64,000 bases of DNA from Bacteroidota bacterium. GTDB lineage: Bacteria; Bacteroidota; Ignavibacteria; UBA10030; SZUA-254. This document shows positions 5,494 to 58,472 of the stretch, piece by piece. The position numbers and the translations under genes were made by a program. Each line of letters opens with the position of its first letter. Position 1 is the stretch's first letter. The notes beneath the pieces were generated by a model, which was given only the letters and a program-made list of their open reading frames with translations, was not told the DNA's origin and did no database searches. Where the stretch lies: positions 3,736-67,735 of the forward strand of contig JAWOKN010000056.1 in NCBI GenBank assembly GCA_033854175.1, read 5' to 3'.

Positions 5494-7386
5494 TTACATC
5501 ACAAAATGAGACACAACGCCGCCGACAAAAAAGGCCACGACCCAGGTACCGATCCAGATCACCATCCCCTCCCTCCAGCCCCTCTCTTTGAGCATCACCA
5601 TCAGTGAAGCGATGCACGGGACAAAGAGGGTAATGACGATAAGCGAAACGGCAATCTGCATCGGGTTGAGGGACATATGGTACAGACCGGCCGCGCCGAA
5701 ATCTCGGCGGACGACGCCCATAATAAATGCGACAGCGGCCTCCGGGGGCAGCTGGAGCCAGTGGACGACCAGGGGGGTAAGTTCGTGCTCGAGAAGATCC
5801 AGCAAACCGGTAAGCTGTGCGATACCGACCGCGAGTGCGCCCACAAAAAACCAGCCCGAGGCCTCCTTCATGAAATAATATGTCCGGACGGCGGTTTTCC
5901 TGAAGACATTTTCCATACGGGGCAATCTCATCGGCGGGAGATCCAGAAGAAGCGGGGCTGACGAGCCCGGCAGGACCCGGTCGAGCATCGTTCCGATAAG
6001 GACCAGAACGGCAAGGATCACCAGGACATAGACAGCGATCGGGCCCGGGCCCGCACCCGCAAGGAGCGCGGCGATGACGGCCATCTGGGCGGAGCAGGGG
6101 ATGACAAACTGAAGAATTGCGGTGGCAATCGTCTTCTCGCGTTCAGAGCCGAGGAGGCGTGTAGTAATCGTTGCGGAGGTCACGCAGCCGAAGCCGAGAA
6201 TCAGCGGAATGACGGCCCTTCCGTTCAGGCCGAGGTAGGTCAGAATGCGGTCCACCATCGTCGCCAGCCGCGGAAGGTACCCGCTATCCTCCATCAGAGA
6301 AAGAACGATATAGAACGAAATCACGAGCGGAAGCAGAAGAAAAAGAAGATACGTTGTGGTCATGGTCACAACGCCGTAAGGACCGACAAGGAGTGTATAC
6401 CACCATGATGAGGGAGAAATCAGGGTGGCGGTGATCGTGCGGATCCACGGTTCCCAGAGATTGTTACCGATCCGCTGCTCGGTAAAATTCACAACCAGCT
6501 GGGAAACAAACTTTCCGATAAAGAGATAGGCGACATACAATGCGGCGACAAGGATAGGGATCCCCGTGGAGGGCTTCAGGGCCCAGCGGCCGAGCCTGTC
6601 GGAAAACCGTCTTTTCGGGGAAGTATCCTGCATGACCTGGTTCACGAGATAATTCACCCGGTTGCGGCGGCTGATATAAATCTCATCGCGGAGCGTGCCG
6701 GGATTGACGCCGTGGCGCCGGGCGACAAACTGGTCCCCCTCGAGGACCAGCAGGGCCTCGGATTGTGAGCCGACCATGGAAAGGGTCTCATGGAGGTGGC
6801 CGTGGAGTTCCTCGCGCTGGGTCCCCTCGCGGGCGCCCAGGATGGCCTGATCGAGTTTTTCCAGCGTGACGCCGTTCACGGCGGTAACGGGAATGACACT
6901 GACGCCCAAAAAATTCGAAAGCTTCGGAATGTCGATACTGATATGAAAATCCCTCACCTCGTCCATAAAATTCAGCAGCACCGTAATCTTCTTCCCCATA
7001 TCGATCAGCTGCTGGGTCAGAAACAGGTCCCGTTCGAGGTGTGTCGCATCGACAACATTCAGAACAATATCCGCGTCGAGGATGATATCGCGGGCGGCTT
7101 TCTCCTCATCATTAAACGACGAGACCCCATAGATGCCGGGTGTATCGAAGACATCATAATCGCGGTAGGAACCGCAGACAAGTTCGACGGTAGTCCCCGG
7201 ATAATTCGAGACATCGACATTCATACCGGAAAGGGTATTAAAAATGATCGATTTCCCGACATTGGGATTGCCGGCAAGGACAATTTCCACGCGTCCGGTC
7301 TGTTTGCGGGGGGATCTCAGGCCGGGATGCTGGTGTCTATCCGAATGTTCCAGCGGGGGGCGGGATAAAGGATCATCTGGTGTCAT
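5494..7386 (-). CDS. feoB: Ferrous iron transport protein B
   Basis: N-terminal G-domain (GNPNVGKS, DVSNYPGTTVE, DTPG) followed by a long polytopic membrane domain. It overlaps feoA by 14 nt. Confidence 0.95.
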   Translation of the reverse strand: MTPDDPLSRPPLEHSDRHQHPGLRSPRKQTGRVEIVLAGNPNVGKSIIFNTLSGMNVDVSNYPGTTVELVCGSYRDYDVFDTPGIYGVSSFNDEEKAARDIILDADIVLNVVDATHLERDLFLTQQLIDMGKKITVLLNFMDEVRDFHISIDIPKLSNFLGVSVIPVTAVNGVTLEKLDQAILGAREGTQREELHGHLHETLSMVGSQSEALLVLEGDQFVARRHGVNPGTLRDEIYISRRNRVNYLVNQVMQDTSPKRRFSDRLGRWALKPSTGIPILVAALYVAYLFIGKFVSQLVVNFTEQRIGNNLWEPWIRTITATLISPSSWWYTLLVGPYGVVTMTTTYLLFLLLPLVISFYIVLSLMEDSGYLPRLATMVDRILTYLGLNGRAVIPLILGFGCVTSATITTRLLGSEREKTIATAILQFVIPCSAQMAVIAALLAGAGPGPIAVYVLVILAVLVLIGTMLDRVLPGSSAPLLLDLPPMRLPRMENVFRKTAVRTYYFMKEASGWFFVGALAVGIAQLTGLLDLLEHELTPLVVHWLQLPPEAAVAFIMGVVRRDFGAAGLYHMSLNPMQIAVSLIVITLFVPCIASLMVMLKERGWREGMVIWIGTWVVAFFVGGVVSHFVM

Positions 7387-7609
7387 GGGGAACTTCGTCG
7401 ATGACCGTCACGAGAATACTCCGTGCAAGTGTGTGGCCGATAGCGATCTGCTGTCGGTTTTTCTGGAGAACGATGGTTCCGCCCGGGAGGCGTTCCAGGC
7501 ATTTGACGCGCTGCCCTTCATGGATCCCCAGCCGGACGAACTGGGGGTAATAATCGCCGCCGGGGACCGAATGAATCTTCAACAATTGACCGACCTTGGT
7601 TTCGCTCAT
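7373..7609 (-). CDS. feoA: Ferrous iron transport protein A (FeoA domain)
   Basis: MSETKVGQLLKIHSVPGG...RLGIHEGQRVKCLERLPGGTIVLQKNRQQIAIGHTLARSILV is a FeoA SH3-like domain. The ORF-track start (GTG 7678) coincides with the predicted sigma54 transcription start, so ATG 7609 is preferred. ATG 7645 and 7672 are alternatives. Confidence 0.8.
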   Translation of the reverse strand: MSETKVGQLLKIHSVPGGDYYPQFVRLGIHEGQRVKCLERLPGGTIVLQKNRQQIAIGHTLARSILVTVIDEVPHDTR

Positions 7610-7686
7610 AGAGACGGGTTTCTTGCGGCTCTTCTTGTCAGTCATGATATCATATCGATTAAATTCAAACATACTCACCTATTATC

Positions 7687-7702
7687 GGCAATTATTGTGC
7701 CA
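7687..7702 (-). promoter_or_regulatory. Sigma54-type promoter (-24 TGGCAC / -12 TTGCC) upstream of feoAB
   Basis: The minus strand reads TGGCAC-AATAA-TTGCC, with correct GG-N10-GC spacing. It is oriented toward feoA, with a predicted TSS near 7676. Confidence 0.6.
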
Positions 7703-7703
7703 C

Positions 7704-7727
7704 AAATCGGATAAATCTATCCAATAT
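7704..7727. promoter_or_regulatory. Palindromic operator (10-4-10) abutting the feo sigma54 promoter
   Basis: The minus strand reads ATATTGGATA-GATT-TATCCGATTT, followed by one nt and then TGGCAC. It is near-identical to the perfect palindrome at 45232-45255. Confidence 0.55.
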
Positions 7728-7810
7728 TTCAGATAAGGATTCCGCAAATCCGCAGACGGGGGAGGGAATGCCTATCATCTTTGATAAAACGAAAATCACA
7801 CGGAAACCGA

Positions 7811-28767: not shown

Positions 28768-29090
28768 TCCCGGGAGAACAGGCATCAACATCCGGTGGCC
28801 GGCATGCCGGTGGGTGGTGCTTCTTACAAATGAGATTAAAAAATTCCCCTCTTTTCAGGCGTGATAGCTTCCCCGTGTAAATCAAAAAAAAGCGGGACAA
28901 TTTCCATGAATCAGACGACTGAAGGGTGGAATAGTTCTTGCAGATATCGTGGAATTGCGACACTGGCATCCGAGTGGGAACTTCAAAGAAGAAGCACCAT
29001 TCCCGCTCATCGTGGTTACGGATTGAAAACGAACAGATCCGCAGAAGCATAACAGACAGGCACCAAGATACAACAGTGAAGGAACATCGT

Positions 29091-29306
29091 ATGGATCATC
29101 GAATGAACGGGGAAATCGTGGAAATCTACATCAGGGACGGGTCGACGCTTGCGAAAGTGCGCGTGGACGGCACCTATTTTCACGTTCCGCTTCTTCTCCT
29201 GATGAACGCCCATGTGGGCGACCACATCATCATCGACGCCGGAATCGCATTAACAAGGATCGAACGGAAGGCAAAGAGCCGGCAGGCTGCAGAACCGGCG
29301 CTGTAG
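29091..29306 (+). CDS. HypC/HupF-like small OB-fold protein lacking the N-terminal Cys
   Basis: MDHRMNGEIVEIYIRDGSTLAKVRVDGTYFHVPLLLLMNAHVGDHIIIDAGIALTRIE parallels MCL-x-IPG-x-I/V-x-EI...A-x-VD-x-G-G-x-x-x-V-x-L...GD-x-V-L-V-H-x-G-x-A-I. The essential Cys2 is absent. Confidence 0.55.
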   Translation: MDHRMNGEIVEIYIRDGSTLAKVRVDGTYFHVPLLLLMNAHVGDHIIIDAGIALTRIERKAKSRQAAEPAL

Positions 29307-36087: not shown

Positions 36088-36252
36088 CCCGCCGCGAACA
36101 GGCTGGACGGGGGTACCGCTCACCCGGGGGTGTACAGGGGTGGGCGGTAGTTATTCGGGGTGGGGGTGATCCGGTAAAACCACCTTTAACCATTTTGTGA
36201 TAAAATCCCCGAATTCATTTCAAATCTGATAACTCCGGGGGAAAAGACGGGC

Positions 36253-36278
36253 CGGAGAGAAGCCAAATCTCCGTTTTT
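36253..36278 (+). terminator. Rho-independent terminator of the four-gene operon
   Basis: CGGAGA-gaagccaaa-TCTCCG followed by T5. Confidence 0.6.
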
Positions 36279-36301
36279 CAGTATCATCTCAACCCCCTTT
36301 A

Positions 36302-36317
36302 TGGCACGAGAATTGAC
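36302..36317 (+). promoter_or_regulatory. Sigma54-like element (TGGCACG-N4-TTGAC) just upstream of the sensor kinase gene
   Basis: The -24 half (TGGCACG) is perfect, and this is the only promoter-like element in the 54 nt between the terminator and ATG 36333. The -12 is TTGA, and the predicted TSS (~36328) leaves only a ~5-nt leader, so it is doubtful. Confidence 0.3.
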
Positions 36318-36332
36318 GATAACGGAAATGGT

Positions 36333-37982
36333 ATGAAGGCATTCCGTTCGCTCAGTGTGAGGGTATTTGCGGGGTCATTTCTCCTCCTTGTGACCCTCCT
36401 GGGGCTCTATTCCTATTTTGCGATAAAGTTTCACACCGAACAGATGATGGAGATCGTCCTGGGAAACGCAAGCCGCATCAGCGACATCATCAAGAACTCG
36501 ACCCACTACAGCATGCTCCTCAACAGGAAGGAGGACGTCTACCAGACGATCCTCACCATCGGCAAGGAAAAGGGGGTTGAAGGGATACGGATTTACAACA
36601 AGCGGGGAGAAATCATGGCCTCCTCCCGCACCGAAGAAAAACTGCAGATTGTCGACATGCATGCTGAAGCCTGTTACGTCTGCCATGAGAAGGGAAAACC
36701 CCTGGAATCGCTCGCATCGGACAACAGGATGCGGATCTACACCTCCCCGAAGGGGTACAGGGTACTGGGTTTGATCAACCCCATCCACAACGAGCCAAGC
36801 TGTTCGAATGCCGATTGCCATGCTCATCCGCCTGATAAAACCATACTCGGTGTACTCGACGTTCGGATGTCGCTGGAAAACGTCGACACGGCAATCGCCG
36901 AAGCGCACGCCAAGATGATCAGCTGGGCGGTCGGGGGAGTTCTCCTTGCATCGCTCCTCATCTCGGTCCTCCTCTACAGAACCGTGCATCGGCCCGTCAA
37001 GCGGCTCACGCTGGGGACGCATGAAGTCTCCTCCGGCAACCTCGATCTCCGGATACCCATACACTCGAAGGACGAACTGGGGCAGCTTGCCGAATCGTTC
37101 AATTCGATGACGACCTCATTGCGCAACCTCATTGAAGAGAAAAACACCTGGTCGCGCGAGCTGGAGGAGCGGGTCCGTGAAAAAACCGCCGAGTTGAAGC
37201 ACATTCACGAGCAGATCCTGCAGATTGAAAAGATGACATCGCTCGGGAAGCTCGCGGCGACCGTTGCGCACGAACTGAACAACCCCCTGGAAGGGATCCT
37301 GACCTACGCGAAGCTCCTGGCGAAGCAGCTCAGGAAAGCCGAATTCTCTGCGGACCGGTCAAAGGAATTTCTCGAGGAACTCAATCTCATCATCCAGGAA
37401 ACGGACCGGTGCGGAACGATCGTGAAGAACCTCCTCCTCTTTTCCCGGAAGCAGGTCGGCGAATTCGCGCTTGCGCCTGCGCGGCAGATCGTGGAGAAGG
37501 CCCAGCGTCTCGTGGATCACCACTTCCACATCTCCAACGTGAAATTCGAGGCCACGTACGCGCCTGAGGACGTGTCGCTCATGTGCGACGAAATGCAGAT
37601 CCAGCAGGCCTTGATTGCGCTCTTTGTCAACGCGGTTGAAGCCATGCCGGGGGGCGGCACACTGCGCGTCGATGTCTCGCAGCGTTCGAAGGATGACAAC
37701 ATCATCCTCCGCATTTCGGACACCGGTACGGGGATAGCGGAGGAGGATCTCCACAACATCTTCGAACCATTTTTCACAACAAAAAAGGAGGGTCAGGGTG
37801 TCGGCCTCGGCCTCTCGGTTGTCTACGGCATCGTCGTCCGTCACGGCGGCACGATCAGTGTGGAGTCGAGTCTCAACAAGGGAACGGCATTCACGCTGAC
37901 CTTCCCGGCGCTTGAGCGGAGCACCAAGGGAATCCCGGAGCCGGAGGCGAAAAAATCACCCATTGATCCACACTATGCATAA
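36333..37982 (+). CDS. Sensor histidine kinase with periplasmic domain carrying two heme-c-type motifs
   Basis: Two TM helices flank a ~165-aa periplasmic domain with CYVCH (aa 114-118) and CSNADCH (aa 157-163). It also has a HAMP domain, an H-box (VAHELNNPLEG) and an HATPase domain (NAVEAM, DTGTGI, GVGLGLS). Confidence 0.9.
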   Translation: MKAFRSLSVRVFAGSFLLLVTLLGLYSYFAIKFHTEQMMEIVLGNASRISDIIKNSTHYSMLLNRKEDVYQTILTIGKEKGVEGIRIYNKRGEIMASSRTEEKLQIVDMHAEACYVCHEKGKPLESLASDNRMRIYTSPKGYRVLGLINPIHNEPSCSNADCHAHPPDKTILGVLDVRMSLENVDTAIAEAHAKMISWAVGGVLLASLLISVLLYRTVHRPVKRLTLGTHEVSSGNLDLRIPIHSKDELGQLAESFNSMTTSLRNLIEEKNTWSRELEERVREKTAELKHIHEQILQIEKMTSLGKLAATVAHELNNPLEGILTYAKLLAKQLRKAEFSADRSKEFLEELNLIIQETDRCGTIVKNLLLFSRKQVGEFALAPARQIVEKAQRLVDHHFHISNVKFEATYAPEDVSLMCDEMQIQQALIALFVNAVEAMPGGGTLRVDVSQRSKDDNIILRISDTGTGIAEEDLHNIFEPFFTTKKEGQGVGLGLSVVYGIVVRHGGTISVESSLNKGTAFTLTFPALERSTKGIPEPEAKKSPIDPHYA

Positions 37983-37997
37983 CCTCACAGAAAACGT

Positions 37998-39344
37998 ATG
38001 AACAACGATATATCCATACTCATTGTCGACGATGAAAAGGTCGTCCGCGAATCCCTCTCGAAGTGGTTCAAGGAAGACGACTTCATCGTGGGCGCATCAG
38101 AAAACGCGGCTGAAGCCCTGAAACAGCTCCAGGTGCGGAAATGGGACATCATTCTCCTCGACATCAAAATGCCGGGGATGGACGGGATGGAGTTACAGCA
38201 GCGAATCCGGGAGATCGACCCCGGAGCGACGATCATCTTCATCACGGCGCACGCCTCGGTCGACACGGCGGTCCAGGCCCTGAAGGCGGGGGCGTTCGAT
38301 TACATCGCGAAGCCGATCGACCCCGACTACCTGTCGCATCTGATCCAGAACGCCATCAAGCAGCGGATCCTGACGGGAGAAAACATCCGTCTGAAGGAGC
38401 AGATCACCGAATTCGCGAAAGTCGATGAGATCATCGGCGACTCCCCGCAGATGAAGAAGGTCTTCGAACTGATCGAAACGGTGGCAAAGACCGACACGAC
38501 GGTCATGATCCGGGGCGAAAGCGGAACGGGGAAGGAGCTCATCGCGCGGGCGATTCACGGCAACAGCGAACGGCGGTATTTTCCCATCGTCGCCATCAAC
38601 TGCGGGGCATTGCCGGAGGGAATACTGGAAAGCGAACTCTTCGGTCATGAGCGGGGTGCGTTTACCGGGGCGCAGTACAGGAGAAAGGGAAAAATCGAGC
38701 TGGCCGACGGCGGCACATTATTTCTTGACGAGGTCGGCAACATCGGGATGAAGACCCAGATGGACCTCCTCCGTGTAATCGAGACAAAGCAATTTTCGCG
38801 TGTCGGGGGAAACGAGCTGATCAAGGTGGACTTCAGGACCATCTGCGCGACAAACAGGGATCTCGAGAAGGCCGTTCAGGAGGGCACCTTCCGTGAAGAC
38901 CTCTATTACCGTCTCAACGTCTTCTCCGTCCTCGTCCCCCCCTTGCGCGAGCGGAAGTCGGACATCCCCCTGCTGGCAAATTACTTTTTGAAAAAATACT
39001 CGCGATCGATGGGGAAGCCGATCGTGACCATCTCCTCGGACGCGATGGATCTGATGGTCAAATACAACTGGCCCGGGAACATCCGCGAGCTGGAAAACGC
39101 GATAGAGCGGGCGATGGTGGTCGGAAAGCCCCCCTGCATCAAGGCGGTGGATCTGCCGATACAGTTCTCCGATCTCATTGCGGCACCTTCGCTCGGATCT
39201 CTGGCATCGATGGAAAAAAGCCACATCGCCGAGATCCTCCGGATGAACAACTGGAACATCTCCCGGTCCGCGGAAGTCCTGCAGATCGACCGGGTCACTC
39301 TCTACAACAAGATCGAAAAATATGGCCTGAAAAAGCCGCAGTGA
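37998..39344 (+). CDS. Sigma54-dependent response regulator (NtrC/AtoC family enhancer-binding protein)
   Basis: Receiver domain (ILIVDDE...ILLDIKMPGMDG), AAA+ domain (GESGTGKE, ERGAFTGA, GTLFLDEV) and a C-terminal Fis-type HTH (RSAEVLQIDRVTLYNKIEKYGL). Confidence 0.95.
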   Translation: MNNDISILIVDDEKVVRESLSKWFKEDDFIVGASENAAEALKQLQVRKWDIILLDIKMPGMDGMELQQRIREIDPGATIIFITAHASVDTAVQALKAGAFDYIAKPIDPDYLSHLIQNAIKQRILTGENIRLKEQITEFAKVDEIIGDSPQMKKVFELIETVAKTDTTVMIRGESGTGKELIARAIHGNSERRYFPIVAINCGALPEGILESELFGHERGAFTGAQYRRKGKIELADGGTLFLDEVGNIGMKTQMDLLRVIETKQFSRVGGNELIKVDFRTICATNRDLEKAVQEGTFREDLYYRLNVFSVLVPPLRERKSDIPLLANYFLKKYSRSMGKPIVTISSDAMDLMVKYNWPGNIRELENAIERAMVVGKPPCIKAVDLPIQFSDLIAAPSLGSLASMEKSHIAEILRMNNWNISRSAEVLQIDRVTLYNKIEKYGLKKPQ

Positions 39345-39929: not shown

Positions 39930-39965
39930 CCTGCAAAAATCACATTGCAGGCTTTCATTTTTGAT
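39930..39965 (+). terminator. Rho-independent terminator after amzA
   Basis: CCTGCAA-aaatcaca-TTGCAGG followed by CTTTCATTTTTG. Confidence 0.65.
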
Positions 39966-40027
39966 AAAAACGCATCCGTTTTTTGAGGTTTCAGAGTTGA
40001 TTCGGCACATTTTGGCTTATGCCTCAA

Positions 40028-40043
40028 TGGAATGATTCTTGCA
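40028..40043 (+). promoter_or_regulatory. Sigma54-like promoter (TGGAAT-N5-TTGCA) upstream of PFOR
   Basis: TGGAAT-GATTC-TTGCA has correct GG-N10-GC spacing. The predicted TSS (~40054) lies 44 nt upstream of ATG 40098, with GAAAGGA in the leader. Confidence 0.45.
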
Positions 40044-43768: not shown

Positions 43769-44758
43769 ATGGATCTCTCAACCACATACCTCGGACTCAA
43801 ACTCAAAAACCCGATCGTCCCGTCGGCCGGGCCGCTGTCGCGCTCGCTCGACAGCATGAGAAGGCTGGAGGAAGCGGGAGCCTCTGCGATTGTCATTCAC
43901 TCCCTCTTCGAGGAGCAGATCGCGCACGAGACGGCGGAATTGTACCACTACCTCTCGTACGGAACGGAAAGCTTTGCGGAAGCGCTGACCTATTTCCCCG
44001 AGCTGCAGCAATACGACCGGGGGCCGGAAGAATACGTCGAGTTCATCCACACGGCAAAGAACTCGCTGACGATTCCGGTGATCGGCAGTCTCAACGGGAT
44101 CTCGGTGGGCGGTTGGATCAAGTATGCGAGAAAGATCCAGGAGGCGGGAGCAGATGCGATCGAGCTGAACATCTATTACATCCCGACCGATCCCGAGCTG
44201 CGGGGGATCGATGTGGAGGACCGGTATCTCGAGGTCCTCTACGCGGTAAAGGAAACCGTGACAATCCCGGTGGCGGTCAAGCTCAGCCCGTTTTTCAGTT
44301 CGCTCGCGCATTTCGCGAAGCGGCTCGACCATGCGGGGGCGAACGGGCTCGTCCTCTTCAACCGGTTCTACCAGCCCGACATCGACCTCGAATCACTTGA
44401 AGTAACGCCCAACGTCATCCTCAGCACCCCCCATGCACTGCGGCTTCCCATGCGGTGGATAGCGATACTCTCGGGGAACATCAAGGCGAGTCTTGCCGCG
44501 ACGAGCGGGATCCACACGGCGGAGGACGTCCTCAAGATGCTCCTTGTCGGGGCCGATGTGACCATGATGTGTTCGGCCCTCTTAAAAAACGGGCCGTCGT
44601 ACCTGGCCGATGTCCTCCAGAGCGTGGAACGGTGGATGATCGAGCGGGAATACCTCTCCCTGCAGCAGATGAAGGGAAGCATGAACCAGCGGTCCATTGC
44701 AGATCCCTCGGCCTTTGAACGCGCCAATTACATGAAAGCACTCCACAGTTACAAATAA
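43769..44758 (+). CDS. Dihydroorotate dehydrogenase-like (class 1 PyrD-fold, FMN TIM-barrel) protein
   Basis: [24 protein letters not shown]..., [22 protein letters not shown]. Confidence 0.8.
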
Positions 44759-44772
44759 CCAATGGAAAATCT

Positions 44773-45228
44773 ATGAGCATATTTTTTAGCCGTCAATGCG
44801 AGTACGCCCTTCAGGCGGTCATGTACATCGCCCTCAAACCGGAGAACGAGATGAGTTCGATCCGCGAGCTGTCGCGGACGCTCGGCATCCCGTATCATTT
44901 CCTTGCAAAAATCCTCCAGGACCTCACGCGGAAAGGATTGCTGACATCCCTGAAAGGTTCCACCGGCGGGTACATGCTTGCGATGCCGAAGGAAACCATC
45001 ACACCGTTCCACATCGTCGATGCCATTGACGGATCAAGTTTTCTGAACAATTGTCTCCTCGGTTTTTCATCCTGCTCAAGCGAAAAACCGTGCGCGTTGC
45101 ATTCCCAATGGGAGGGTATGCGGGAGAAACTCAATACCATGCTGAAATCGACCAACATCTATGAGGCGGCGCTCAGCATGAAGAAACCGCAATATCTCCA
45201 TAATCAACCCGGGCCAAGCACCACCTGA
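44773..45228 (+). CDS. Rrf2-family transcriptional regulator with three-Cys putative Fe-S ligand set
   Basis: Its wHTH region is FSRQCEYALQAVMYIALKPENEMSSIRELSRTLGIPYHFLAKILQDLTRKGLLTSLKGSTGGY. The Cys spacing is NNCLLGFSSCSSEKPCALH (C-x6-C-x5-C), like IscR/NsrR-type cluster ligands. Confidence 0.9.
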   Translation: MSIFFSRQCEYALQAVMYIALKPENEMSSIRELSRTLGIPYHFLAKILQDLTRKGLLTSLKGSTGGYMLAMPKETITPFHIVDAIDGSSFLNNCLLGFSSCSSEKPCALHSQWEGMREKLNTMLKSTNIYEAALSMKKPQYLHNQPGPSTT

Positions 45229-45231
45229 TGA

Positions 45232-45255
45232 ATATCGGATAAATCTATCCGATAT
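45232..45255. promoter_or_regulatory. Perfect 10-4-10 palindromic operator
   Basis: ATATCGGATA-AATC-TATCCGATAT starts 4 nt after the rrf2 stop and directly abuts the -24 element at 45256. A second, slightly imperfect copy lies at 7704-7727. Confidence 0.6.
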
Positions 45256-45271
45256 TGGCACAGATGTTGCA
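45256..45271 (+). promoter_or_regulatory. Consensus sigma54 promoter (TGGCAC-N5-TTGCA)
   Basis: TGGCAC-AGATG-TTGCA matches the -24/-12 consensus fully. It is oriented toward the NapH-like gene, with a predicted TSS ~45282. Confidence 0.7.
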
Positions 45272-45522
45272 CTACTAGAGCTGAAGAAATACAAAGGCCG
45301 GTTCTTCCCTCTGTATTAGAGACCTTTTTGATCATCAGAAGAATCCCTTTTTTAAGAATGAGAAATCAGCAGTTTACGGCTATAAGAAGTGACACCGTGC
45401 CCCCTCCTTCCGCTGCATTTGCCGTTGCACCGCAAAATGGACTATCCCCGTATAAAGCCGAAGGCGCCAGGTCCGGGCGTCTGAGTATAAAAAAGCTCTC
45501 ACCCGCGCTCCGCAAACCGAAA

Positions 45523-46578
45523 ATGGGTTACCGGAACGAAACAGGCATACGCCGAATCCTCCTGAGGCTCAGGGAAGATTCACAGTTCCTCCGTTCGGTC
45601 ATACAGACAGCGTTCCTGCTGCTTTGCATCTGGATCGGGATAGAGTTCTATTTATTCGTGAAATGGGGTGCCTCGGGAGGTGTGGAGGCCTATCATATGC
45701 GGCCTCCCGGTGTGGAAGGATTTCTGCCGATCAGCGCTCTGATCAGCCTGAAATATTTCCTGCAGACCGGCATCATCAACAGCGTCCATCCCTCGGGATT
45801 ATTCATCTTCGCAGCGATTCTGGTAATAGGATTTTTCTTTAAAAAAGCCTTCTGCAGCTGGCTCTGTCCGATCGGCACAATAAGTGAATCCCTCTGGACC
45901 TTCGGCCGGAAACTCTTCGGGAAAAATATCGTCCTACCCCGATGGCTCGATTATCCGCTCCGTTCCATCAAATACCTGCTCCTGTTGTTTTTTGCCTACA
46001 TCATCTGGAGCATGAGCATCGATGGCCTCCAGTTTTTCATACAAAGCCCGTACAACCAGGTAGCAGACGTCAAGATGTACTACTTTTTCGCACGGATCAG
46101 CACCTTTGCCCTCTGGACCATCATCATCCTTGCGATCCTGTCGGTCTTCATCAAAAACTTCTGGTGCCGGTATCTCTGTCCCTACGGAGCGCTCCTGGGC
46201 ATCACCGGATTATTCAGTCCGTTAAAGATCACGCGGAATACGACAACATGCATCGACTGCGAACTCTGCACGAAAGTCTGTCCGGCCAGCATCAGGGTCC
46301 ACGCGCTGAAGAAGGTGAGAAGTGATGAATGCATGAGCTGTCTTGAATGCGTGCAGATCTGTCCGGTAAAAAACACACTTGAAGTTCAGCCCCCCGCGGG
46401 GAACGCGAAAGTCCCCGGATGGATCTTCGGGCTTCTCGTCGCCGGGGTATTCGTCGGGATCACCGGTCTTGCGATGCTCGCCGGGCACTGGCAGAATTCA
46501 ATCACAAAGGCAGAATACCTGAACCACTTCCGGAACATCGAATCCCACGTCTATTCCCATGAAGACGCGATCCGATAA
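45523..46578 (+). CDS. NapH/YccM-type membrane polyferredoxin (4Fe-4S binding protein)
   Basis: Membrane CxxxCP motifs (FCSWLCPIG, WCRYLCPYG) plus two ferredoxin motifs (CIDCELCTKVCP, CMSCLECVQICP). ATG 45523 gives ~25 aa before the first TM helix. The ORF-track TTG 45328 would add a low-complexity extension, so the start is uncertain. Confidence 0.75.
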   Translation: MGYRNETGIRRILLRLREDSQFLRSVIQTAFLLLCIWIGIEFYLFVKWGASGGVEAYHMRPPGVEGFLPISALISLKYFLQTGIINSVHPSGLFIFAAILVIGFFFKKAFCSWLCPIGTISESLWTFGRKLFGKNIVLPRWLDYPLRSIKYLLLLFFAYIIWSMSIDGLQFFIQSPYNQVADVKMYYFFARISTFALWTIIILAILSVFIKNFWCRYLCPYGALLGITGLFSPLKITRNTTTCIDCELCTKVCPASIRVHALKKVRSDECMSCLECVQICPVKNTLEVQPPAGNAKVPGWIFGLLVAGVFVGITGLAMLAGHWQNSITKAEYLNHFRNIESHVYSHEDAIR

Positions 46579-47365
46579 ATCTCTCCGGGCGTTTTACGAC
46601 ACTCTGGCGCCGGACTACGACCTGATGACGGCATTCAACGATCGCGTCGCGAGAGAGGAGGAATTCTTCCGTTTCCTTGCAAAAAAATATCACATTCGCA
46701 CCGCAATCGATGCAGGCTGCGGGACGGGAGTTCACTCGATACTTCTTGCCAGGCTGGGCGTGAAGGTCACTGCTGTGGACATATCGCGGAAAATGATCAC
46801 GGCGACGAGAGCCAATGCACAAAAATTTCACCTCCCGATAAGAGGAGTAGAATCGTCATTCGGTGAAATGGCAAAAAAATTGGATACCGTCGCCGACGCC
46901 CTCTTTTGCATGGGAAATTCCCTGGCGCACATGCTGACGGAGGAGGAATTACTCGACAGCCTGGCAAATTTCCGTGCACTCCTCAGGCCGAAGGGACTTT
47001 TGGTACTCCAGCTGGGAAATTACGACCGAATACTCAAAGAGAGGGCACGTCTGCAGCATGTGAGGGATTCCGGAGGAAAAAGCTTCGTGCGATCGTACTG
47101 CTACCTTCAATCTTTAATATCCTTCAGTATAGATATCAAGACTTCAGCCAGGGGGAGAACATTGAAGAACATCAGAATAAAGCTGAACCCAATCCGCAGC
47201 GGATATCTTCAAAGGCTCCTCATCCGGTCAGGATTCACAGTGATGGCAGAATACGGAAGCCTGCAAAAGGAGCCATTTTCGAAGGGTAGGTCGCGCGATG
47301 TAATCATCCTGGCCAAAAAGGCATACATGCGAATCTTTTCCTCATTTCCTGCATCATATAGATGA
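46559..47365 (+). CDS. Class I SAM-dependent methyltransferase
   Basis: AIDAGCGTGVHSILLARLGVKVTAVDISRKMI (motif I plus the acidic residue). It overlaps the upstream gene by 20 nt. Confidence 0.85.
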   Translation: MKTRSDKSLRAFYDTLAPDYDLMTAFNDRVAREEEFFRFLAKKYHIRTAIDAGCGTGVHSILLARLGVKVTAVDISRKMITATRANAQKFHLPIRGVESSFGEMAKKLDTVADALFCMGNSLAHMLTEEELLDSLANFRALLRPKGLLVLQLGNYDRILKERARLQHVRDSGGKSFVRSYCYLQSLISFSIDIKTSARGRTLKNIRIKLNPIRSGYLQRLLIRSGFTVMAEYGSLQKEPFSKGRSRDVIILAKKAYMRIFSSFPASYR

Positions 47366-47452: not shown

Positions 47453-47917
47453 ATGAGCACAAAGCAGGCAACAATACATCAGCTTCAGGGAACAACGCTT
47501 CTGGCAAAAAGCGATTCAAATCACTGGGTTGTCATGGACGGGTCTCCGACCTTCGGGGGAAGCAGTGCCGGATCGAGTCCCAAGGAATTACTTCTCATGG
47601 CACTCGGGGGTTGCACTGCCAACGACGTGATCCCGATTCTGAAGAAAAAGCGTGTCCCCCTTCAAAAACTTGAAATACGGGTAACAGGAAACACGCGGGA
47701 CGAACACCCGCAGATCTTCACCAACATCAACATCGAATATATATTTTACGGTAATGGCCTGGACACAGAAGCGCTCGAACGGGCGATAGAACTCTCAACG
47801 ACAAAATACTGTTCAATTTCCGCGATGCTCCGGAGCTCAGTAGAAATAACGCATTCATACCGGCAGGTCGGTGTGCAGGAAGAAGCACCCGCCGAAATGC
47901 TCGTGGAGAACAACTGA
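47453..47917 (+). CDS. OsmC/Ohr family peroxiredoxin-like protein (second paralogue)
   Basis: SPKELLLMALGGCTANDV...TTKYCSISAML aligns end to end with 25819..26253. Confidence 0.9.
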   Translation: MSTKQATIHQLQGTTLLAKSDSNHWVVMDGSPTFGGSSAGSSPKELLLMALGGCTANDVIPILKKKRVPLQKLEIRVTGNTRDEHPQIFTNINIEYIFYGNGLDTEALERAIELSTTKYCSISAMLRSSVEITHSYRQVGVQEEAPAEMLVENN

Positions 47918-48006
47918 TACCTGAGGGATCTCACAAATCCCTGAGCGTGAGATGGACAACAACCACAGGAATACACCACAAACACAGAACGGAGCTGCAT
48001 CACCCT

Positions 48007-48240
48007 ATGCCTATTTTTGAATACCGCTGCACGCACTGCGATCAAGTCTTCGATATCCTCCACAAAGGCCGTGAAATTACCGCCGACGTCATCTGTCCGT
48101 CGTGCGGATCGACGGAGTACAAAAAACTCATCTCCGCTCCATCGGTTTCCGTGGGGCAGTCATCGGGAACCGATTCCTTTTCCGGGCCTTCATGCGGAGC
48201 CGACGGAGGATGTTGCGGAGGCTCATGCCAGGTAAATTAA
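48007..48240 (+). CDS. FmdB-family zinc-ribbon protein
   Basis: MPIFEYRCTHCDQVFDILHKGREITADVICPSCGSTEYKKLIS (CxxC...CxxC) with a Gly/Cys-rich tail. The ORF-track start 47947 is an extension. Confidence 0.8.
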   Translation: MPIFEYRCTHCDQVFDILHKGREITADVICPSCGSTEYKKLISAPSVSVGQSSGTDSFSGPSCGADGGCCGGSCQVN

Positions 48241-48256
48241 CCGGCCAGGAAACAGT

Positions 48257-48634
48257 ATGAGCCCCACACTTCTTATCATCCTATCAGTCATCGCATTATT
48301 CCTGGTTTTCAGAATCCGCCGATGGTTCGTCCAGCGGTCGGTAAAGCAATATACACCGGCGGAGGCGCAGCAATCCCCGAATAAAATATTTCTCGACGTC
48401 CGGACGGGTGCGGAGCGGGCCCAGGGGTCGATCAGGGGATCGATCCACATTCCGCTCCACGAACTCTCCCGTCGGATCAACGAACTGCGGCCACACATGA
48501 ACCGAGAAATCATCTGTTACTGTCAATCGGGGAGCAGAAGCATCGCAGCCTCGTCGATTCTCCAGCGTCACGGATACACTGTGGCAAACCTCAAAGGAGG
48601 GATAGCCGAATGGAATTTCCAAAACCTCCGGTAA
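48257..48634 (+). CDS. Membrane-anchored rhodanese-domain sulfurtransferase
   Basis: N-terminal TM helix, FLDVRTGAERAQGSIRGSIHIP, and the active-site loop CYCQSGSRS. Confidence 0.85.
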   Translation: MSPTLLIILSVIALFLVFRIRRWFVQRSVKQYTPAEAQQSPNKIFLDVRTGAERAQGSIRGSIHIPLHELSRRINELRPHMNREIICYCQSGSRSIAASSILQRHGYTVANLKGGIAEWNFQNLR

Positions 48635-48837
48635 TTTTAATAAAATCAGCCGCCCCGATCGTCGGCGGGATCATGGGTTTCGCGTACTACAAATTTGTCG
48701 GATGCACAACGGGAGCCTGTCCGATAACGGGTAACCCGTTTATCAGCACACTCTATGGGGCGCTTCTCGGGTATCTCATCGGATCCCAGTTTACCAGAAC
48801 ATCACCACCGGACAGCAAACAAACGGACACTTTATGA
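48610..48837 (+). CDS. Small two-TM membrane protein with GC-x-x-GACP motif
   Basis: PIVGGIMGFAYYKFVGCTTGACPITGNPFISTLYGALLGYLIG. It overlaps the rhodanese gene by 25 nt and the DUF302-like gene by 4 nt (ATGA). The start is uncertain. Confidence 0.5.
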   Translation: MEFPKPPVILIKSAAPIVGGIMGFAYYKFVGCTTGACPITGNPFISTLYGALLGYLIGSQFTRTSPPDSKQTDTL

Positions 48838-49217
48838 ACTACGGAATCTCAAAAACGGTCCACCTGTCGTACGACCAGGCAGTTGCAAAAGTAACTGAAA
48901 CCTTACAGAAGGAAGGTTTTGGCATCCTCACATCGATCGACGTCAAAGAAACCCTCAAAAAGAAACTGAACGTTGATTTCAAGCGGTACGTCATCCTGGG
49001 AGCCTGCAACCCGCACTTTGCCCATCAGACCCTTCAGATGGAAGAAAACATCGGGCTACTCCTCCCCTGCAACGTCATCGTGTACGAGAAGGACAATGCC
49101 ACAGTTGTGGCTGCATTCAATCCGATGGCCATGACGGAGCTGATCGGGAACCGGTCGCTCGAAAAAATTGCCCGGGAGGTAGCCGACCGGCTTGAGCGGG
49201 CAATTAACGCCGTATAA
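48834..49217 (+). CDS. DUF302-like protein
   Basis: MNYGISKTVHLSYDQAVAKVTETLQKEGFGILTSIDVKETLKKKLNVDFKRYVILGACNPHFAHQ...LLPCNVIVYE is the pattern I recognise as DUF302. Confidence 0.8.
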   Translation: MNYGISKTVHLSYDQAVAKVTETLQKEGFGILTSIDVKETLKKKLNVDFKRYVILGACNPHFAHQTLQMEENIGLLLPCNVIVYEKDNATVVAAFNPMAMTELIGNRSLEKIAREVADRLERAINAV

Positions 49218-56381: not shown

Positions 56382-58472
56382 TTATTTCACGAGCAGCATT
56401 GTTTCTGTCTTCGTATACTCTCCCGCCTGCAAGCGGTAGAAATAAGGTCCACTCGGCAACTCCGCGGCACTGAATGTTCTCGCATAGACCCCGGCCGCCA
56501 ACCTCTCCCTGTCGATCATCGTCCCCACCAGCTGACCCAGCAGATTAAACACCTTCAACGTAACGACCGATTGTTTCGGAAGGCCAAACGCAATTGTGGT
56601 TGATGGGTTAAAGGGATTGGGATAATTTCGCGACAGATAAAATCGCGCTGGCAGGGGATCGTGGGCGGGTTCAATCCCCGTCATCATCTCCGACAATGGA
56701 CGTCTCCACACCCCGCTCGTCACCGTTCCTGCGAAAAGGTTTCCATTATTCACAGCAAAAGCATAAACCGTCGTATTCGGCATTCCCAGATTGACCTGGG
56801 TCCAGTACACCCCGTCGTTCGTCGAAAGAAAAATCCCGCTGTCACTTCCCGCAAAGATATTCAACACGCCCCCTCCCTGAATCGTCAAGAGCGACCTTAT
56901 GTTGAAATTTGTCAGGCCTGAATCGGCAGGAACCCAGCTCCCACCGTTATTCGTTGAACAAAAAACCCCCCCGCCCAGTGTGCCGGCAAAAAGGCGTGTT
57001 TCGGTACCGGCAAGAGCGCGCACGTCCAGATTCGACAGATTTGAACTGACATCGGTCCAGCTCGTTCCATTATTTGTGGAGAGGAAAACGCCACCGCCGG
57101 ATGTCCCTGTAAACAAATTTGTCCCCCCGCCCCCGTCGGGGACAACGGCAAACGAGCGTATTATGGAATTCGTCAGGCCAGAATCGGCCGCACTCCAGCT
57201 CGTTCCATTATTCGTCGAGAGAAACACGCCGCCTCCGGAGCTACCCGCAAAGACAGTGCCACCGCTCACAGCGAGGGAACTGAAGAGGGGATAGATCAGG
57301 CCCGAATCAACAGGGATCCATTCCGTCCCATTATTGGTGGAGAGAAAAACCCCGCTGCGCGCTGCGGCAAAGAGATTCGTACCGCTCGACGCAAGGGCGG
57401 AGATATACACGTCGTACAGTCCGGAACTCGCCGGGGACCAGTTCAACCCGCCGTCGGTGGTGCGAAATACGCCGTTACCGGATGTTCCCGCGAAAACATT
57501 TATTCCATCGGAGGAAAGAGCCCTCACCGAGGTATTCGTCAGACCTGAGCTGGCAGAGCTCCAGCTTGTCCCATCATCCGTGGAAAGATAGACCCCACCG
57601 CCATACGTGCCGGCAAAAAGATTCGTTCCGTTGACGGCAATCGAATAGACCGAACCGTTGATCAAACCCGAATCCACCGACACCCAGTTTTTCCCGCTGT
57701 TTGTTGACCGGAAGACGCCAGTACCGCCGCCTGCGTACAACGCCGTCCCTTTTGAAGCAAGAGTTCTAACATACGGATTCCATAAATCTGAATCGGCGCG
57801 GGTCCAATTTTGACCGTTATTGGTGGAAACACATACACCGCCGCCCCAGGTACCGGCAAAAAGATATGAACCGCTGACGGTCAGGGTACCCACTTGGGAA
57901 TTTGTCAGTCCGGAGTTAACAGCAGTCCAGGCGGATCCGTTGTTCGTAGAACGAAAAACCCCATTGTTCATCGTCCCGGCAAATATGTTCACCCCGTTGA
58001 CACCGAGGGCAAGAATGGATGAATCGGTCAATCCTCCGCTCGCAGACGTCCAGGTAAGCCCATTATTGGTCGACCGGAAGACTCCGCTCCCGGATGTTCC
58101 CGCGAAGATACTCGTTCCATTCACAGCCAGGGACGATACAAACATGTTCCAGAGGCCGGAATTCCGTCCGGTCCATGTCGCCCCGTTATCCGTGGAAAGA
58201 AAAACACCGCCTCCGCGGGTACCCGCAAAGATATTCGTGCCGCTCAGGGCGAATGAATAGACATACATACTGCTCAGACCAGAGGGAGTCCACGTCGAGC
58301 CGGTATTTGTGGAATGAAAAATCCCGTTATCAGTCCCCGCGAAAAGATCTGCACCATTAACGGCTATGGCATACACATCGCCGCCAAAGGGACCGTTCGT
58401 CTGCACCCATTGAGCTTCAAGCTGATTCACCACAAAAGAGAATAAACACAGAAATGATACCATTCGCAGCAT
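56382..58472 (-). CDS. Secreted 13-repeat BNR/Asp-box-like beta-propeller protein with T9SS C-terminal sorting domain
   Basis: ATG 58472 is preceded by AAGGAGGG and gives the signal peptide MLRMVSFLCLFSFVVNQLEAQ. There are thirteen units of the type GVF-x-STNNG-x-x-W-x(6)-GL-x(10)-G-x-x-(L/I)FAGT. The C-terminus reads NYPNPFNPSTTIAFGLP...GPYFYRLQAG...MLLVK. Confidence 0.85.
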   Translation of the reverse strand: MLRMVSFLCLFSFVVNQLEAQWVQTNGPFGGDVYAIAVNGADLFAGTDNGIFHSTNTGSTWTPSGLSSMYVYSFALSGTNIFAGTRGGGVFLSTDNGATWTGRNSGLWNMFVSSLAVNGTSIFAGTSGSGVFRSTNNGLTWTSASGGLTDSSILALGVNGVNIFAGTMNNGVFRSTNNGSAWTAVNSGLTNSQVGTLTVSGSYLFAGTWGGGVCVSTNNGQNWTRADSDLWNPYVRTLASKGTALYAGGGTGVFRSTNSGKNWVSVDSGLINGSVYSIAVNGTNLFAGTYGGGVYLSTDDGTSWSSASSGLTNTSVRALSSDGINVFAGTSGNGVFRTTDGGLNWSPASSGLYDVYISALASSGTNLFAAARSGVFLSTNNGTEWIPVDSGLIYPLFSSLAVSGGTVFAGSSGGGVFLSTNNGTSWSAADSGLTNSIIRSFAVVPDGGGGTNLFTGTSGGGVFLSTNNGTSWTDVSSNLSNLDVRALAGTETRLFAGTLGGGVFCSTNNGGSWVPADSGLTNFNIRSLLTIQGGGVLNIFAGSDSGIFLSTNDGVYWTQVNLGMPNTTVYAFAVNNGNLFAGTVTSGVWRRPLSEMMTGIEPAHDPLPARFYLSRNYPNPFNPSTTIAFGLPKQSVVTLKVFNLLGQLVGTMIDRERLAAGVYARTFSAAELPSGPYFYRLQAGEYTKTETMLLVK
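56385..56645 (-). other. T9SS C-terminal sorting domain of the repeat protein
   Basis: RFYLSRNYPNPFNPSTTIAFGLPKQSVVTLKVFNLLGQLVGTMID...SGPYFYRLQAGEYTKTETMLLVK. Confidence 0.8.
56690..58400 (-). repeat. Tandem coding repeats (~41-47 aa period, 13 copies)
   Basis: The motif S-T-(N/D)-(N/D/G)-G-x-x-W recurs 13 times at a regular spacing of roughly 125-140 nt. Confidence 0.8.

What the first reader, a model, noticed from the sequence alone, without database searches (positions are those of the whole stretch)
45232..45271. Perfect 10-4-10 palindrome fused to a consensus sigma54 promoter directly after an Fe-S-type Rrf2 regulator gene
Seen. ATATCGGATA-AATC-TATCCGATAT has perfect 10-bp arms and begins 4 nt after the rrf2 stop. 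It runs straight into TGGCAC-AGATG-TTGCA, a full match to the sigma54 -24/-12 consensus. That promoter points at the NapH-like polyferredoxin, methyltransferase and OsmC genes. If ATG 45523 is the true start, the leader is ~240 nt. A near-identical module occurs at 7687-7727 in front of feoAB.

Established knowledge. Enhancer-binding proteins usually bind ~100-200 bp upstream of sigma54 promoters. A dyad touching the -24 element is better placed to occlude the sigma54 holoenzyme, as a repressor would. Rrf2 regulators (IscR, NsrR, RirA) bind dyads of about this size and sense Fe-S, NO or iron status.

Inference. The adjacent three-Cys Rrf2 protein is the obvious candidate for a repressor that gates sigma54 promoters according to Fe-S or iron status. 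A Fur-family or other regulator cannot be excluded.
Basis: partly seen in the sequence, partly recalled or inferred. Interest (0 to 1): 0.7.

Follow-up and report, generated by a model that had tools for sequence, protein, structure and literature searches.

The report
Rrf2 operator fused to sigma54 promoters
A 24-bp palindrome touching a sigma54 promoter is most likely the binding site of the neighbouring iron-sulfur Rrf2 regulator, and the same composite is conserved in at least 16 related Ignavibacteria-type genomes, an unusual but not revolutionary way to put a repressor on an activator-dependent promoter.

Summary
ATATCGGATAAATCTATCCGATAT (45232-45255) abuts TGGCACAGATGTTGCA (45256-45271). 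A second copy (7704-7727) abuts TGGCACAATAATTGC on the minus strand, in front of feoAB.

I compared 80 loci from Ignavibacteria/Bacteroidota MAGs that carry an ortholog of this Rrf2 gene.
- The same dyad, generalised as ATTTCRGAYWAA|TTWRTCYGAAAT, flanks rrf2 almost everywhere.
- Upstream of rrf2 it overlaps the -10 of a TTGACA-N17-TAnnnT promoter. That position implies autorepression.
- Downstream it sits in front of a conserved NapH-like polyferredoxin and methyltransferase cassette.
- In 16 of the non-redundant loci scanned (window included; 17 sites, the window has two), the dyad centre lies 12.5-14.5 nt from the GG of a GGCA[CT]-N5-TTG motif. Chance would give 0.06 such sites. L106 and L086 carry it too.

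The dyad is therefore very probably the operator of this Rrf2, a subfamily outside the IscR, NsrR and RirA equivalogs. At about -38 it is placed to block the sigma54 holoenzyme.

The NapH-like gene starts at ATG 45358, so the leader is about 75 nt, not about 240. The sensed signal (iron/Fe-S, NO or redox) is unresolved.

I could not check for rpoN. A GAFTGA enhancer-binding protein is encoded in the window. Binding and repression are inferred, not shown. I rate this a new variant of a known kind, of moderate interest.

The parts
45232..45255 (.). 24-bp perfect palindrome; proposed operator of the adjacent Rrf2 protein; centre about 38 nt upstream of the predicted start site
   Evidence: same dyad flanks rrf2 orthologs in most of 72 loci; 95 matches of at least 19/24 in 1.29 Mb against 1.6 in shuffles
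45256..45271 (+). sigma54-type promoter TGGCAC-N5-TTGCA (-24/-12); predicted start site near 45282
   Evidence: conserved next to the dyad in 13 loci scored class B plus L063, L065, L086
44773..45228 (+). rrf2 gene (151 aa), with Cys94/Cys101/Cys107/His110 and Cys9 invariant in 33 orthologs; 14 nt after the DHOD-like gene, so probably co-transcribed with PFOR and DHOD-like
45358..46578 (+). NapH/MauN-like membrane polyferredoxin (406 aa, revised start); first gene downstream of the module
   Evidence: follows rrf2 in 52 of the 72 non-redundant loci with a called rrf2
46559..47365 (+). class I SAM methyltransferase, overlaps the end of the NapH-like gene; conserved partner of the cassette
47453..49217 (+). 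same-strand genes that may belong to the same transcript (inferred): OsmC, Zn-ribbon, rhodanese, DUF6132, DUF302
7704..7727 (.). second dyad (AAATCGGATAAATCTATCCAATAT), 1 nt from the -24 element of the feoA promoter
   Evidence: conserved in L106
7688..7702 (-). sigma54-type promoter TGGCACAATAATTGC pointing at feoAB
   Evidence: L087/L088 keep TGGCATCAGAATTGC upstream of feoA
7726..7749 (.). possible extra half-site (ATTTCAGATAAG...) directly upstream of the feoA dyad; weak, 17/24
5494..7672 (-). feoA (start ATG 7672 or ATG 7645) and feoB, ferrous iron transporter
36302..39344 (+). sigma54 promoter TGGCACGAGAATTGA (36302-36316), histidine kinase (36333-37982) and NtrC/AtoC-type enhancer-binding response regulator with GAFTGA (37998-39344); shows the organism uses sigma54; candidate activator, not shown

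Best explanation
The 24-bp dyad is the operator of the Rrf2-family protein encoded just upstream. That protein is a dimeric winged-helix regulator with an IscR-like Cys3-His iron-sulfur site.

In this genome the operator occupies about -50 to -26 of two real sigma54 promoters. One drives the NapH-like polyferredoxin, methyltransferase and OsmC genes. The other drives feoAB.

The bound regulator would clash with the sigma54 holoenzyme at the -24 element, or block the activator's approach. Transcription would then need two things: an active enhancer-binding protein, and release of Rrf2 when its cluster is lost or modified.

Shown here:
- The elements exist and are non-random.
- The dyad is conserved around rrf2 and at core-promoter positions in many genomes.
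- The dyad-to-sigma54 spacing is conserved.

Inferred:
- That this Rrf2 binds the dyad.
- That binding represses.
- The sensed signal.
For: The dyad belongs with rrf2.
- The generalised dyad matches at 19/24 or better 95 times in 1.29 Mb of related loci, against 1.6 in shuffles.
- 75 of those matches lie within 130 nt of an rrf2 end. Most of the rest are next to rrf2 genes my ORF caller missed, or next to feoAB.

Its positions are repressor positions.
- In 46 loci the dyad sits upstream of rrf2. In 37 of them a TTGAC -35 precedes it so that it overlaps the -10, and it commonly ends a few nt before the ATG. The scan tool finds TTGACA-17-TATTTT in L026.
- 56 of 72 loci have the dyad between rrf2 and the NapH-like gene. 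That gene follows rrf2 whatever lies upstream.

The link to sigma54 is not chance.
- 17 of the 117 GGCA[CT]-N5-TTG[CAG] motifs in these loci lie 12.5-14.5 nt from a dyad centre, against 0.06 expected. They lie in front of the NapH-like gene (13), feoA, a cytochrome c gene and a Rieske/cytochrome b operon.
- These loci fall in at least 4 clades of the Rrf2 tree.
- They share sequence after the -12 element (TTG[CA]ACTCT).
- The feoA module recurs in L106.

The organism uses sigma54.
- The window encodes an enhancer-binding protein with GAFTGA.
- Conserved -24/-12 promoters precede the kinase operon and PFOR.

The operator resembles the IscR type-1 site ATASYYGACTRwwwYAGTCRRSTAT as quoted in PMC3899308. 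It shares the ATA/TAT-like ends and the GAY/RTC cores, and is 1 bp shorter.
Against: - There is no binding, footprint, transcription-start or expression data.
- rpoN could not be looked for outside the window.
- No enhancer site or cognate activator was identified for either promoter.
- L087/L088 keep a sigma54 promoter at feoA without the dyad.
- In L001 and L003 the dyad also lies about 130-150 bp upstream of the kinase operon's sigma54 promoter. That is an enhancer-like position, and simple occlusion does not explain it.
- Co-location with rrf2 is strong, but it is circumstantial evidence for which protein binds.
Confidence: 0.62

Rival explanations
1. Rrf2 binds the dyad but helps rather than blocks. 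It could bend the DNA, stabilise the sigma54 closed complex, or tether an activator that has no DNA site of its own.
For: - No enhancer site was found for these promoters.
- The spacing to the -24 element is tightly conserved at 12.5-14.5 nt, as expected for a stereospecific contact.
- DNA-bending helpers are common at sigma54 promoters (review PMC6524683).
Against: - At sigma70-type promoters in the same family of loci the dyad covers the -10 and the start site, which is a repressor position.
- The -24/-12 elements here are near consensus and need no recruitment help.
- Known helpers bind between the enhancer and the promoter, not against the -24 element (my own knowledge, not checked here).
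Confidence: 0.13
2. The dyad is bound by another regulator, and rrf2 is merely one of its targets. Candidates are the NtrC-type enhancer-binding protein encoded 6 kb upstream, or an unlinked iron or redox regulator.
For: - The dyad lies at about -140 from the kinase/activator operon's sigma54 promoter in L001 and L003.
- An enhancer-binding protein that also represses sigmaA promoters through dyad repeats is known: PexR (PMC12754779).
Against: - The dyad flanks rrf2 in loci that have no kinase/activator genes nearby, and in 43 loci that have no sigma54 motif.
- There is a single dyad at about -38. Activator sites are usually more than 50 bp upstream and multiple (PMC12754779).
- The conserved motif upstream of the PFOR sigma54 promoter (CTGCAAAAAT...GCTTTCA) is different.
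- There is no Fur box: the best match is 12/19, and 62 such matches occur in the window by chance.
Confidence: 0.1
3. The TGGCAC-N5-TTGC motifs are not used as promoters. The genes are read through from rrf2/PFOR or from an unrecognised sigmaA promoter.
For: - Consensus -24/-12 matches can be non-functional. One lies inside a gene at 57247-57261.
- Most relatives lack the motif in front of the NapH-like gene.
Against: - Enrichment at a fixed offset from the dyad is about 300-fold.
- The motif is conserved across at least 4 clades, with shared downstream sequence.
- Loci with the motif have leaders of about 75-216 nt, while those without it have almost none.
Confidence: 0.08
4. The palindrome acts as an RNA hairpin, either a terminator of rrf2 or a processing site, rather than as a DNA site.
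For: It folds at -15.6 kcal/mol, z-score -2.5.
Against: - No U-run follows it and no terminator is called there.
- The same dyad sits upstream of rrf2 at promoters, and upstream of feoA in the orientation that is not transcribed.
Confidence: 0.02

Closest known systems
IscR and its type-1 operator (E. coli, Pseudomonas)
   Same: - Both are Rrf2-fold regulators. The best solved-structure match is E. coli IscR, E about 1e-9.
- Cys3 plus His ligands align with IscR C92/C98/C104/H107.
- Both use an operator of about 24-25 bp with AT ends and GAY/RTC cores.
- Both are autoregulated from a site over their own promoter.
   Different: - It scores 71 bits against an IscR equivalog cutoff of 207.6.
- Its Cys spacing is C-X6-C-X5-C.
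- Its operator is 1 bp shorter.
- The gene next to rrf2 is a NapH-like/methyltransferase cassette rather than isc or suf genes.
- Some of its targets have sigma54 promoters.
NsrR and RirA (Fe-S Rrf2 repressors sensing NO or iron)
   Same: - They use the same logic: a cluster-bearing repressor sits on a dyad in the core promoter.
- feoAB as a target recalls RirA.
- RIC/ScdA and hemerythrin genes inside the dyad-controlled rrf2/napH unit, and a dyad before a cytochrome c gene followed by a NarG-like one, recall NsrR regulons.
   Different: - It is far below both equivalog cutoffs: 50.8 bits against 182 for NsrR, and 59.3 against 193 for RirA.
- Its dyad sequence is different.
- I found no report of either acting at a sigma54 promoter.
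Negative or dual control at sigma54 promoters (PexR of Myxococcus; BosR, a Fur-family protein linked to the sigma54-dependent rpoS of Borrelia)
   Same: A second, signal-sensing DNA-binding protein acts at or near a sigma54 promoter in addition to the ATPase activator (PMC12754779; PMC11109971 abstract).
   Different: - PexR is itself the activator and binds several repeats upstream.
- BosR is a Fur-family protein, and that abstract describes it as an RNA-binding protein controlling rpoS RNA stability.
- Here a single Rrf2-type dyad abuts the -24 element at a fixed 12.5-14.5 nt.

Membership tests
Rrf2 family transcription factor | Rrf2 winged-helix domain above the curated cutoff | tested here: met
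   PF02082 at 106.5 bits (cutoff 30). TIGR00738 at 108.5 bits (cutoff 73.3).
Rrf2 family transcription factor | Three clustered Cys ligands for an Fe-S cluster | tested here: met
   C94, C101, C107 and H110 are invariant in 33 orthologs. They align with the IscR ligand region. Cluster binding itself is not testable here.
IscR (equivalog) | Score above the TIGR02010 / NF008110 cutoff | tested here: not met
   71 bits against 207.55, and 50.5 against 275.
IscR (equivalog) | Adjacent to and controlling isc or suf Fe-S assembly genes | tested here: inconclusive
   The labelled gene after rrf2 is NapH-like in 52 of the 72 non-redundant loci with a called rrf2. isc and suf genes were never searched for, and genomes were not scanned beyond 10 kb on each side.
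NsrR / RirA / CymR (equivalogs) | Score above the curated cutoff | tested here: not met
   NsrR 50.8 against 182. RirA 59.3 against 193. CymR 42.8 against 195.
Rrf2-type operator | Dyad of about 23-27 bp with AT-rich ends, conserved at the regulator's own promoter | tested here: met
   A 24-bp dyad lies upstream of rrf2 in 46 loci. In 37 of them a TTGAC -35 precedes it, so it overlaps the -10. It resembles the IscR type-1 consensus.
Rrf2-type operator | Bound by the cognate protein | not testable with these tools
   Needs EMSA or footprinting.
sigma54-dependent promoter | GG and GC exactly 10 bp apart within TGGCAC-N5-TTGCW | tested here: met
   45256-45271 and 7702-7688.
sigma54-dependent promoter | Conserved at the orthologous position in relatives | tested here: met
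   17 sites in 16 loci, window included, lie at a fixed offset from the dyad. L106 and L086 carry it too.
sigma54-dependent promoter | Enhancer-binding ATPase with GAFTGA encoded in the genome | tested here: met
   Window 37998-39344.
sigma54-dependent promoter | rpoN present; start site about 12 nt after the GC; identified enhancer site | not testable with these tools
   No RpoN box in the window or loci. No shared enhancer motif was found.
Enhancer (UAS) of an enhancer-binding protein | Located more than 50 bp upstream, usually in several copies, and found only with sigma54 promoters | tested here: not met
   There is a single dyad centred about 38 nt upstream of the start site. The same dyad occurs at 43 sites that have no sigma54 motif. 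Criterion as stated in PMC12754779.
Fur box | Match to GATAATGATAATCATTATC at the feoA promoter | tested here: not met
   Best match is 12/19, which is chance level. Distant feoB loci L100-L107 do carry Fur-like boxes.
Intrinsic terminator | GC-rich hairpin followed by a U-run | tested here: not met
   None is called in 44700-45600.

The most novel reading that the evidence does not exclude
Rrf2 bound at about -38 is not a simple occluder. It could instead be a dedicated partner of the sigma54 holoenzyme. The fixed 12.5-14.5 nt spacing would then reflect a direct contact. That contact could hold the closed complex in an activator-resistant state. In the other cluster state it could recruit the holoenzyme or a site-less activator. 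Either way, an Fe-S sensor would be an integral component of sigma54 promoter control in Ignavibacteria.
Probability: 0.12. Interest if true: 0.75.

Novelty: new variant of a known kind. Interest (0 to 1): 0.5.

Why it matters
- sigma54 promoters are usually controlled only positively, by their ATPase activators. Here a repressor operator is fixed against the -24 element and conserved across many species. That gives a natural AND-NOT gate: activator present and Fe-S sensor released.
- The composite sits on ferrous-iron uptake genes and on a widespread, uncharacterised polyferredoxin/methyltransferase cassette.
- The work defines an operator and a partial regulon for an Rrf2 subfamily that appears here only in Ignavibacteria/Bacteroidota MAGs and fits none of the named equivalogs.
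- One operator is found inside sigma70-type promoters in most lineages and next to sigma54 promoters in others. This offers a clean system for studying how promoters change sigma factor while keeping their regulator.

Tried and rejected
- **Enhancer hypothesis.** I first suspected the dyad was the enhancer of the nearby NtrC-type activator, because it lies about 140 bp upstream of that operon's promoter in L001 and L003. I rejected this once the dyad turned up around rrf2 in loci with no sigma54 motif.
- **Shared enhancer motif.** I compared the upstream regions of the NapH-like, feoA, kinase and PFOR promoters. Only chance-level 12-mers came out. CTTGCAAAAAT at 44902 lies in the codons of the invariant PYHFLAKI helix.
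- **Fur box.** None at either promoter.
- **Terminator.** None.
- **rpoN.** A search for the RpoN box in six-frame translations of the window and of 107 loci found nothing. This says nothing about the genome as a whole.
- **Weaker dyads in the window.** Candidates at 46568, 53269 and elsewhere score 15-17 of 24, which is at chance level.
- **Literature.** Searches for an Rrf2, IscR or NsrR protein acting at a sigma54 promoter found no precedent.
- **Metagenome scan with FeoB.** It returned only one very close relative with the upstream region intact, L106.

Full report
**Observation.**
- rrf2 spans 44773-45228.
- After 3 nt comes the perfect 10-4-10 palindrome ATATCGGATAAATCTATCCGATAT (45232-45255).
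- It is followed directly by TGGCACAGATGTTGCA (45256-45271).
- The second module is AAATCGGATAAATCTATCCAATAT (7704-7727). TGGCACAATAATTGC lies on the minus strand (7702-7688), 1 nt away, and faces feoA/feoB.
- With up to 3 mismatches the 24-mer occurs nowhere else in the window and in none of 100 shuffles.
- Pfam confirms the genes: Rrf2, a Fer4_5 NapH-like polyferredoxin, a methyltransferase, OsmC, a Zn-ribbon protein, rhodanese, DUF6132, DUF302, FeoA and FeoB.
- A third exact TGGCAC-N5-TTGC at 57247-57261 lies inside a 702-aa ORF and is probably inert.

**Lineage and orthologous loci.**
- Rrf2 homologs at 57-94% identity come from Bacteroidota/Ignavibacteriales MAGs.
- The identical protein is in GCA_037917075.1.
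- I fetched loci for three homologs and 80 further loci from the species-level genome collection.
- In the 87%-identical relative L001 the module is conserved but drifted. It reads ATATCGGATTGTTTTATCCGAATT followed by TGGCATAATAGTTGC, and the dyad starts on the last base of the stop codon.

**The dyad belongs to rrf2.**
- A position matrix and a degenerate consensus (ATTTCRGAYWAA|TTWRTCYGAAAT) find the dyad on both sides of rrf2 in most loci.
- It matches at 19/24 or better 95 times in 1.29 Mb, against 1.6 in block shuffles.
- 75 of those matches lie within 130 nt of an rrf2 end.
- In 46 loci the dyad lies upstream of rrf2. In 37 of them a TTGAC -35 precedes it, so it overlaps a TTGACA-N17-TAnnnT promoter and commonly ends a few nt before the ATG. 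The promoter scan gives TTGACA-17-TATTTT in L026. This is the classic self-repression layout.
- Downstream of rrf2, 56 of 72 non-redundant loci have the dyad in front of a NapH-like gene of about 400 aa, usually followed by the methyltransferase. This holds whatever lies upstream of rrf2.
- rrf2, dyad, NapH-like gene and methyltransferase therefore form a conserved cassette.

**The link to sigma54.** The spacer between rrf2 and the NapH-like gene comes in two forms.
- Class A (43 loci): a T-run, then the dyad, then a very short leader, with no -24/-12 motif.
- Class B (13 loci scored, plus L063, L065 and L086): the dyad abuts GGCA[CT]-N5-TTG[CAG] and the leader is longer.

Across all loci, 17 of the 117 such motifs lie 12.5-14.5 nt from a dyad centre. 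Chance predicts 0.06, from 210 dyads, 2 strands, 3 offsets and a rate of 4.5e-5.
- The 17 sites precede the NapH-like gene (13), feoA (window), a cytochrome c gene (L027) and a GltD-like/Rieske/cytochrome b operon (L041).
- Class B loci fall in at least 4 clades of an Rrf2 tree.
- They share sequence just after the -12 element (TTG[CA]ACTCT), which suggests common descent.
- The closest FeoB relative, L106 at 90% identity, has ATTTCGGAGAATTTTATCCGATTA-T-TGGCACAGTAATTGT.
- L087 and L088 (about 70% identity) keep a sigma54 promoter without the dyad.
- Distant feoB loci carry Fur-like boxes.

**Is sigma54 used in this organism?**
- The window encodes a histidine kinase and an NtrC/AtoC-type response regulator with GAFTGA.
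- Their operon is preceded by TGGCACGAGAATTGA, which is conserved in L001 and L003; L006 has TGGCACATAACTTGC at the equivalent place.
- PFOR is preceded by a conserved TGGAA[TC]-N5-TTG[CT] and a conserved upstream motif.
- TGG[AC]A[CT]-N5-TTGC occurs 5 times in the window against 0.45 expected.
- rpoN itself was not found in the window or the loci. Its presence is inferred from the activator, on established knowledge.

**Mechanism.**
- With GG at -24/-25, the dyad centre lies at about -38 and the 24 bp span about -50 to -26.
- A winged-helix dimer there would touch the -24 element, which the RpoN box of sigma54 contacts (review PMC6524683).
- Activator sites normally lie more than 50 bp upstream and are multiple (PMC12754779). 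The dyad is therefore not an enhancer.
- At sigma70-type promoters of the same regulon the dyad covers the -10.
- The consistent reading is a repressor. Expression would require both an active enhancer-binding protein and release of Rrf2.
- Which activator acts here is unknown, since no shared upstream motif was found.

**The regulator.**
- Only the Rrf2 superfamily model passes its cutoff. IscR, the SUF regulator, RirA, NsrR and CymR are all far below theirs.
- The best solved relative is E. coli IscR at E about 1e-9.
- C94, C101, C107 and H110 are invariant in 33 orthologs, as are C9 and E10.
- From memory, E10 aligns with the Asp8/Glu8 cluster ligand of NsrR/RsrR. I did not test this.
- The operator resembles the IscR type-1 consensus ATASYYGACTRwwwYAGTCRRSTAT (quoted in PMC3899308) but is 1 bp shorter.

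**What signal is sensed?**
- The dyad precedes feoAB, a cytochrome c gene followed by a NarG-like one, and a Rieske/cytochrome b operon. RIC/ScdA and hemerythrin genes lie inside the dyad-controlled rrf2/napH unit in L027 and L041.
- That mix fits iron or Fe-S status, but equally NO or redox. The signal is unresolved.

- The NapH-like gene starts at ATG 45358 (406 aa), not 45523. The conserved IKKLSPxLRK motif lies upstream of 45523, and NCBI's call agrees. The leader is about 75 nt.
- The feoA start is either ATG 7672, which is nearly leaderless, or ATG 7645.

**Rivals.**
- A helper role for Rrf2.
- Another protein as the binder.
- A non-functional motif.
- An RNA hairpin: there is no terminator, and the fold is -15.6 kcal/mol.

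All are less well supported, as set out in the rival section.

**Novelty.**
- Rrf2 repressors and sigma54 promoters are both well known.
- A conserved Rrf2-type operator fixed against the -24 element was not found in the searchable literature.
- I rate it a new variant of a known kind, interest about 0.5.
- All functional statements rest on comparative sequence evidence only.

Noticed in passing
window 40028-40042 and 39930-39975: A conserved sigma54-type element TGGAATGATTCTTGC lies about 55 nt upstream of the PFOR (nifJ-like) start. A conserved upstream motif CCTGCAAAAAT...GCTTTCATTTTTGATAA accompanies it. Both recur in many Ignavibacteria loci. They are probably the target and enhancer of the adjacent kinase/activator pair, which would put rrf2 itself under sigma54 control in this genome.
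   Followed up: partly
L001 1368-1391; L003 1360-1383; window 36100-36316: The same dyad lies about 130-150 bp upstream of the conserved sigma54 promoter (TGGCACGAGAATTGA) of the kinase/activator operon in two relatives. It is absent at that place in the window. Simple occlusion does not explain this position.
   Followed up: partly
class A loci such as L026 10442-10480 and L068 10422-10480: The rrf2 stop codon is followed by T7-9 G, then 4-6 nt, then the dyad. This holds for 40 of the 43 class A loci and 5 class B loci. In L068 the T-run is the tail of a terminator-like hairpin; in L026 it is not. The right edge of the dyad often reads CTGA(A)TATAA, which looks like an extended -10, exactly where class B loci have TGGCA.
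   Followed up: partly
window 45358 versus 45523: The NapH-like gene starts at ATG 45358 (406 aa). The later ATG would remove a conserved IKKLSPxLRK motif.
   Followed up: yes
window 7645-7678: The feoA start is ambiguous: ATG 7672 or ATG 7645. With ATG 7672 the sigma54 transcript would have a leader of only about 4 nt. L106 has ATG 13 nt after its -12 element.
   Followed up: partly
window 44797-44802 (Cys9-Glu10 of Rrf2): Cys9 and Glu10 in the N-terminal helix are invariant in 33 orthologs. From memory, Glu10 aligns with the Asp8/Glu8 cluster ligand of NsrR/RsrR, so the cluster ligation could be NsrR-like rather than IscR-like.
   Followed up: no
window 28927-28941: Another TGGAATAGTTCTTGC match sits in an apparently non-coding stretch upstream of 28938-29306 and of the Ser/Thr kinase-like gene at 29527.
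   Followed up: no
L087 2629-2643; L088 2628-2642: feoAB loci about 70% identical to the window's keep a sigma54 promoter TGGCATCAGAATTGC but have no dyad. More distant feoB loci (L100-L107) have tandem Fur-like boxes. feoAB regulation has evidently been rewired several times.
   Followed up: partly
L041 12804-12827; L048 12679; L056 4147; L069 5096; L027 14024: Further dyad sites lie in front of a GltD-like oxidoreductase/Rieske/cytochrome b operon and in front of cytochrome c genes (followed by NarG-like and NarH-like genes in L069). Separately, RIC/ScdA and hemerythrin genes lie inside the rrf2/napH unit in L027 and L041. Together this gives the regulon an NO or respiratory flavour.
   Followed up: partly
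window 57247-57261 (minus strand): A perfect TGGCAC-N5-TTGC lies inside a 702-aa ORF. It is probably a non-functional or intragenic sigma54 site.
   Followed up: no
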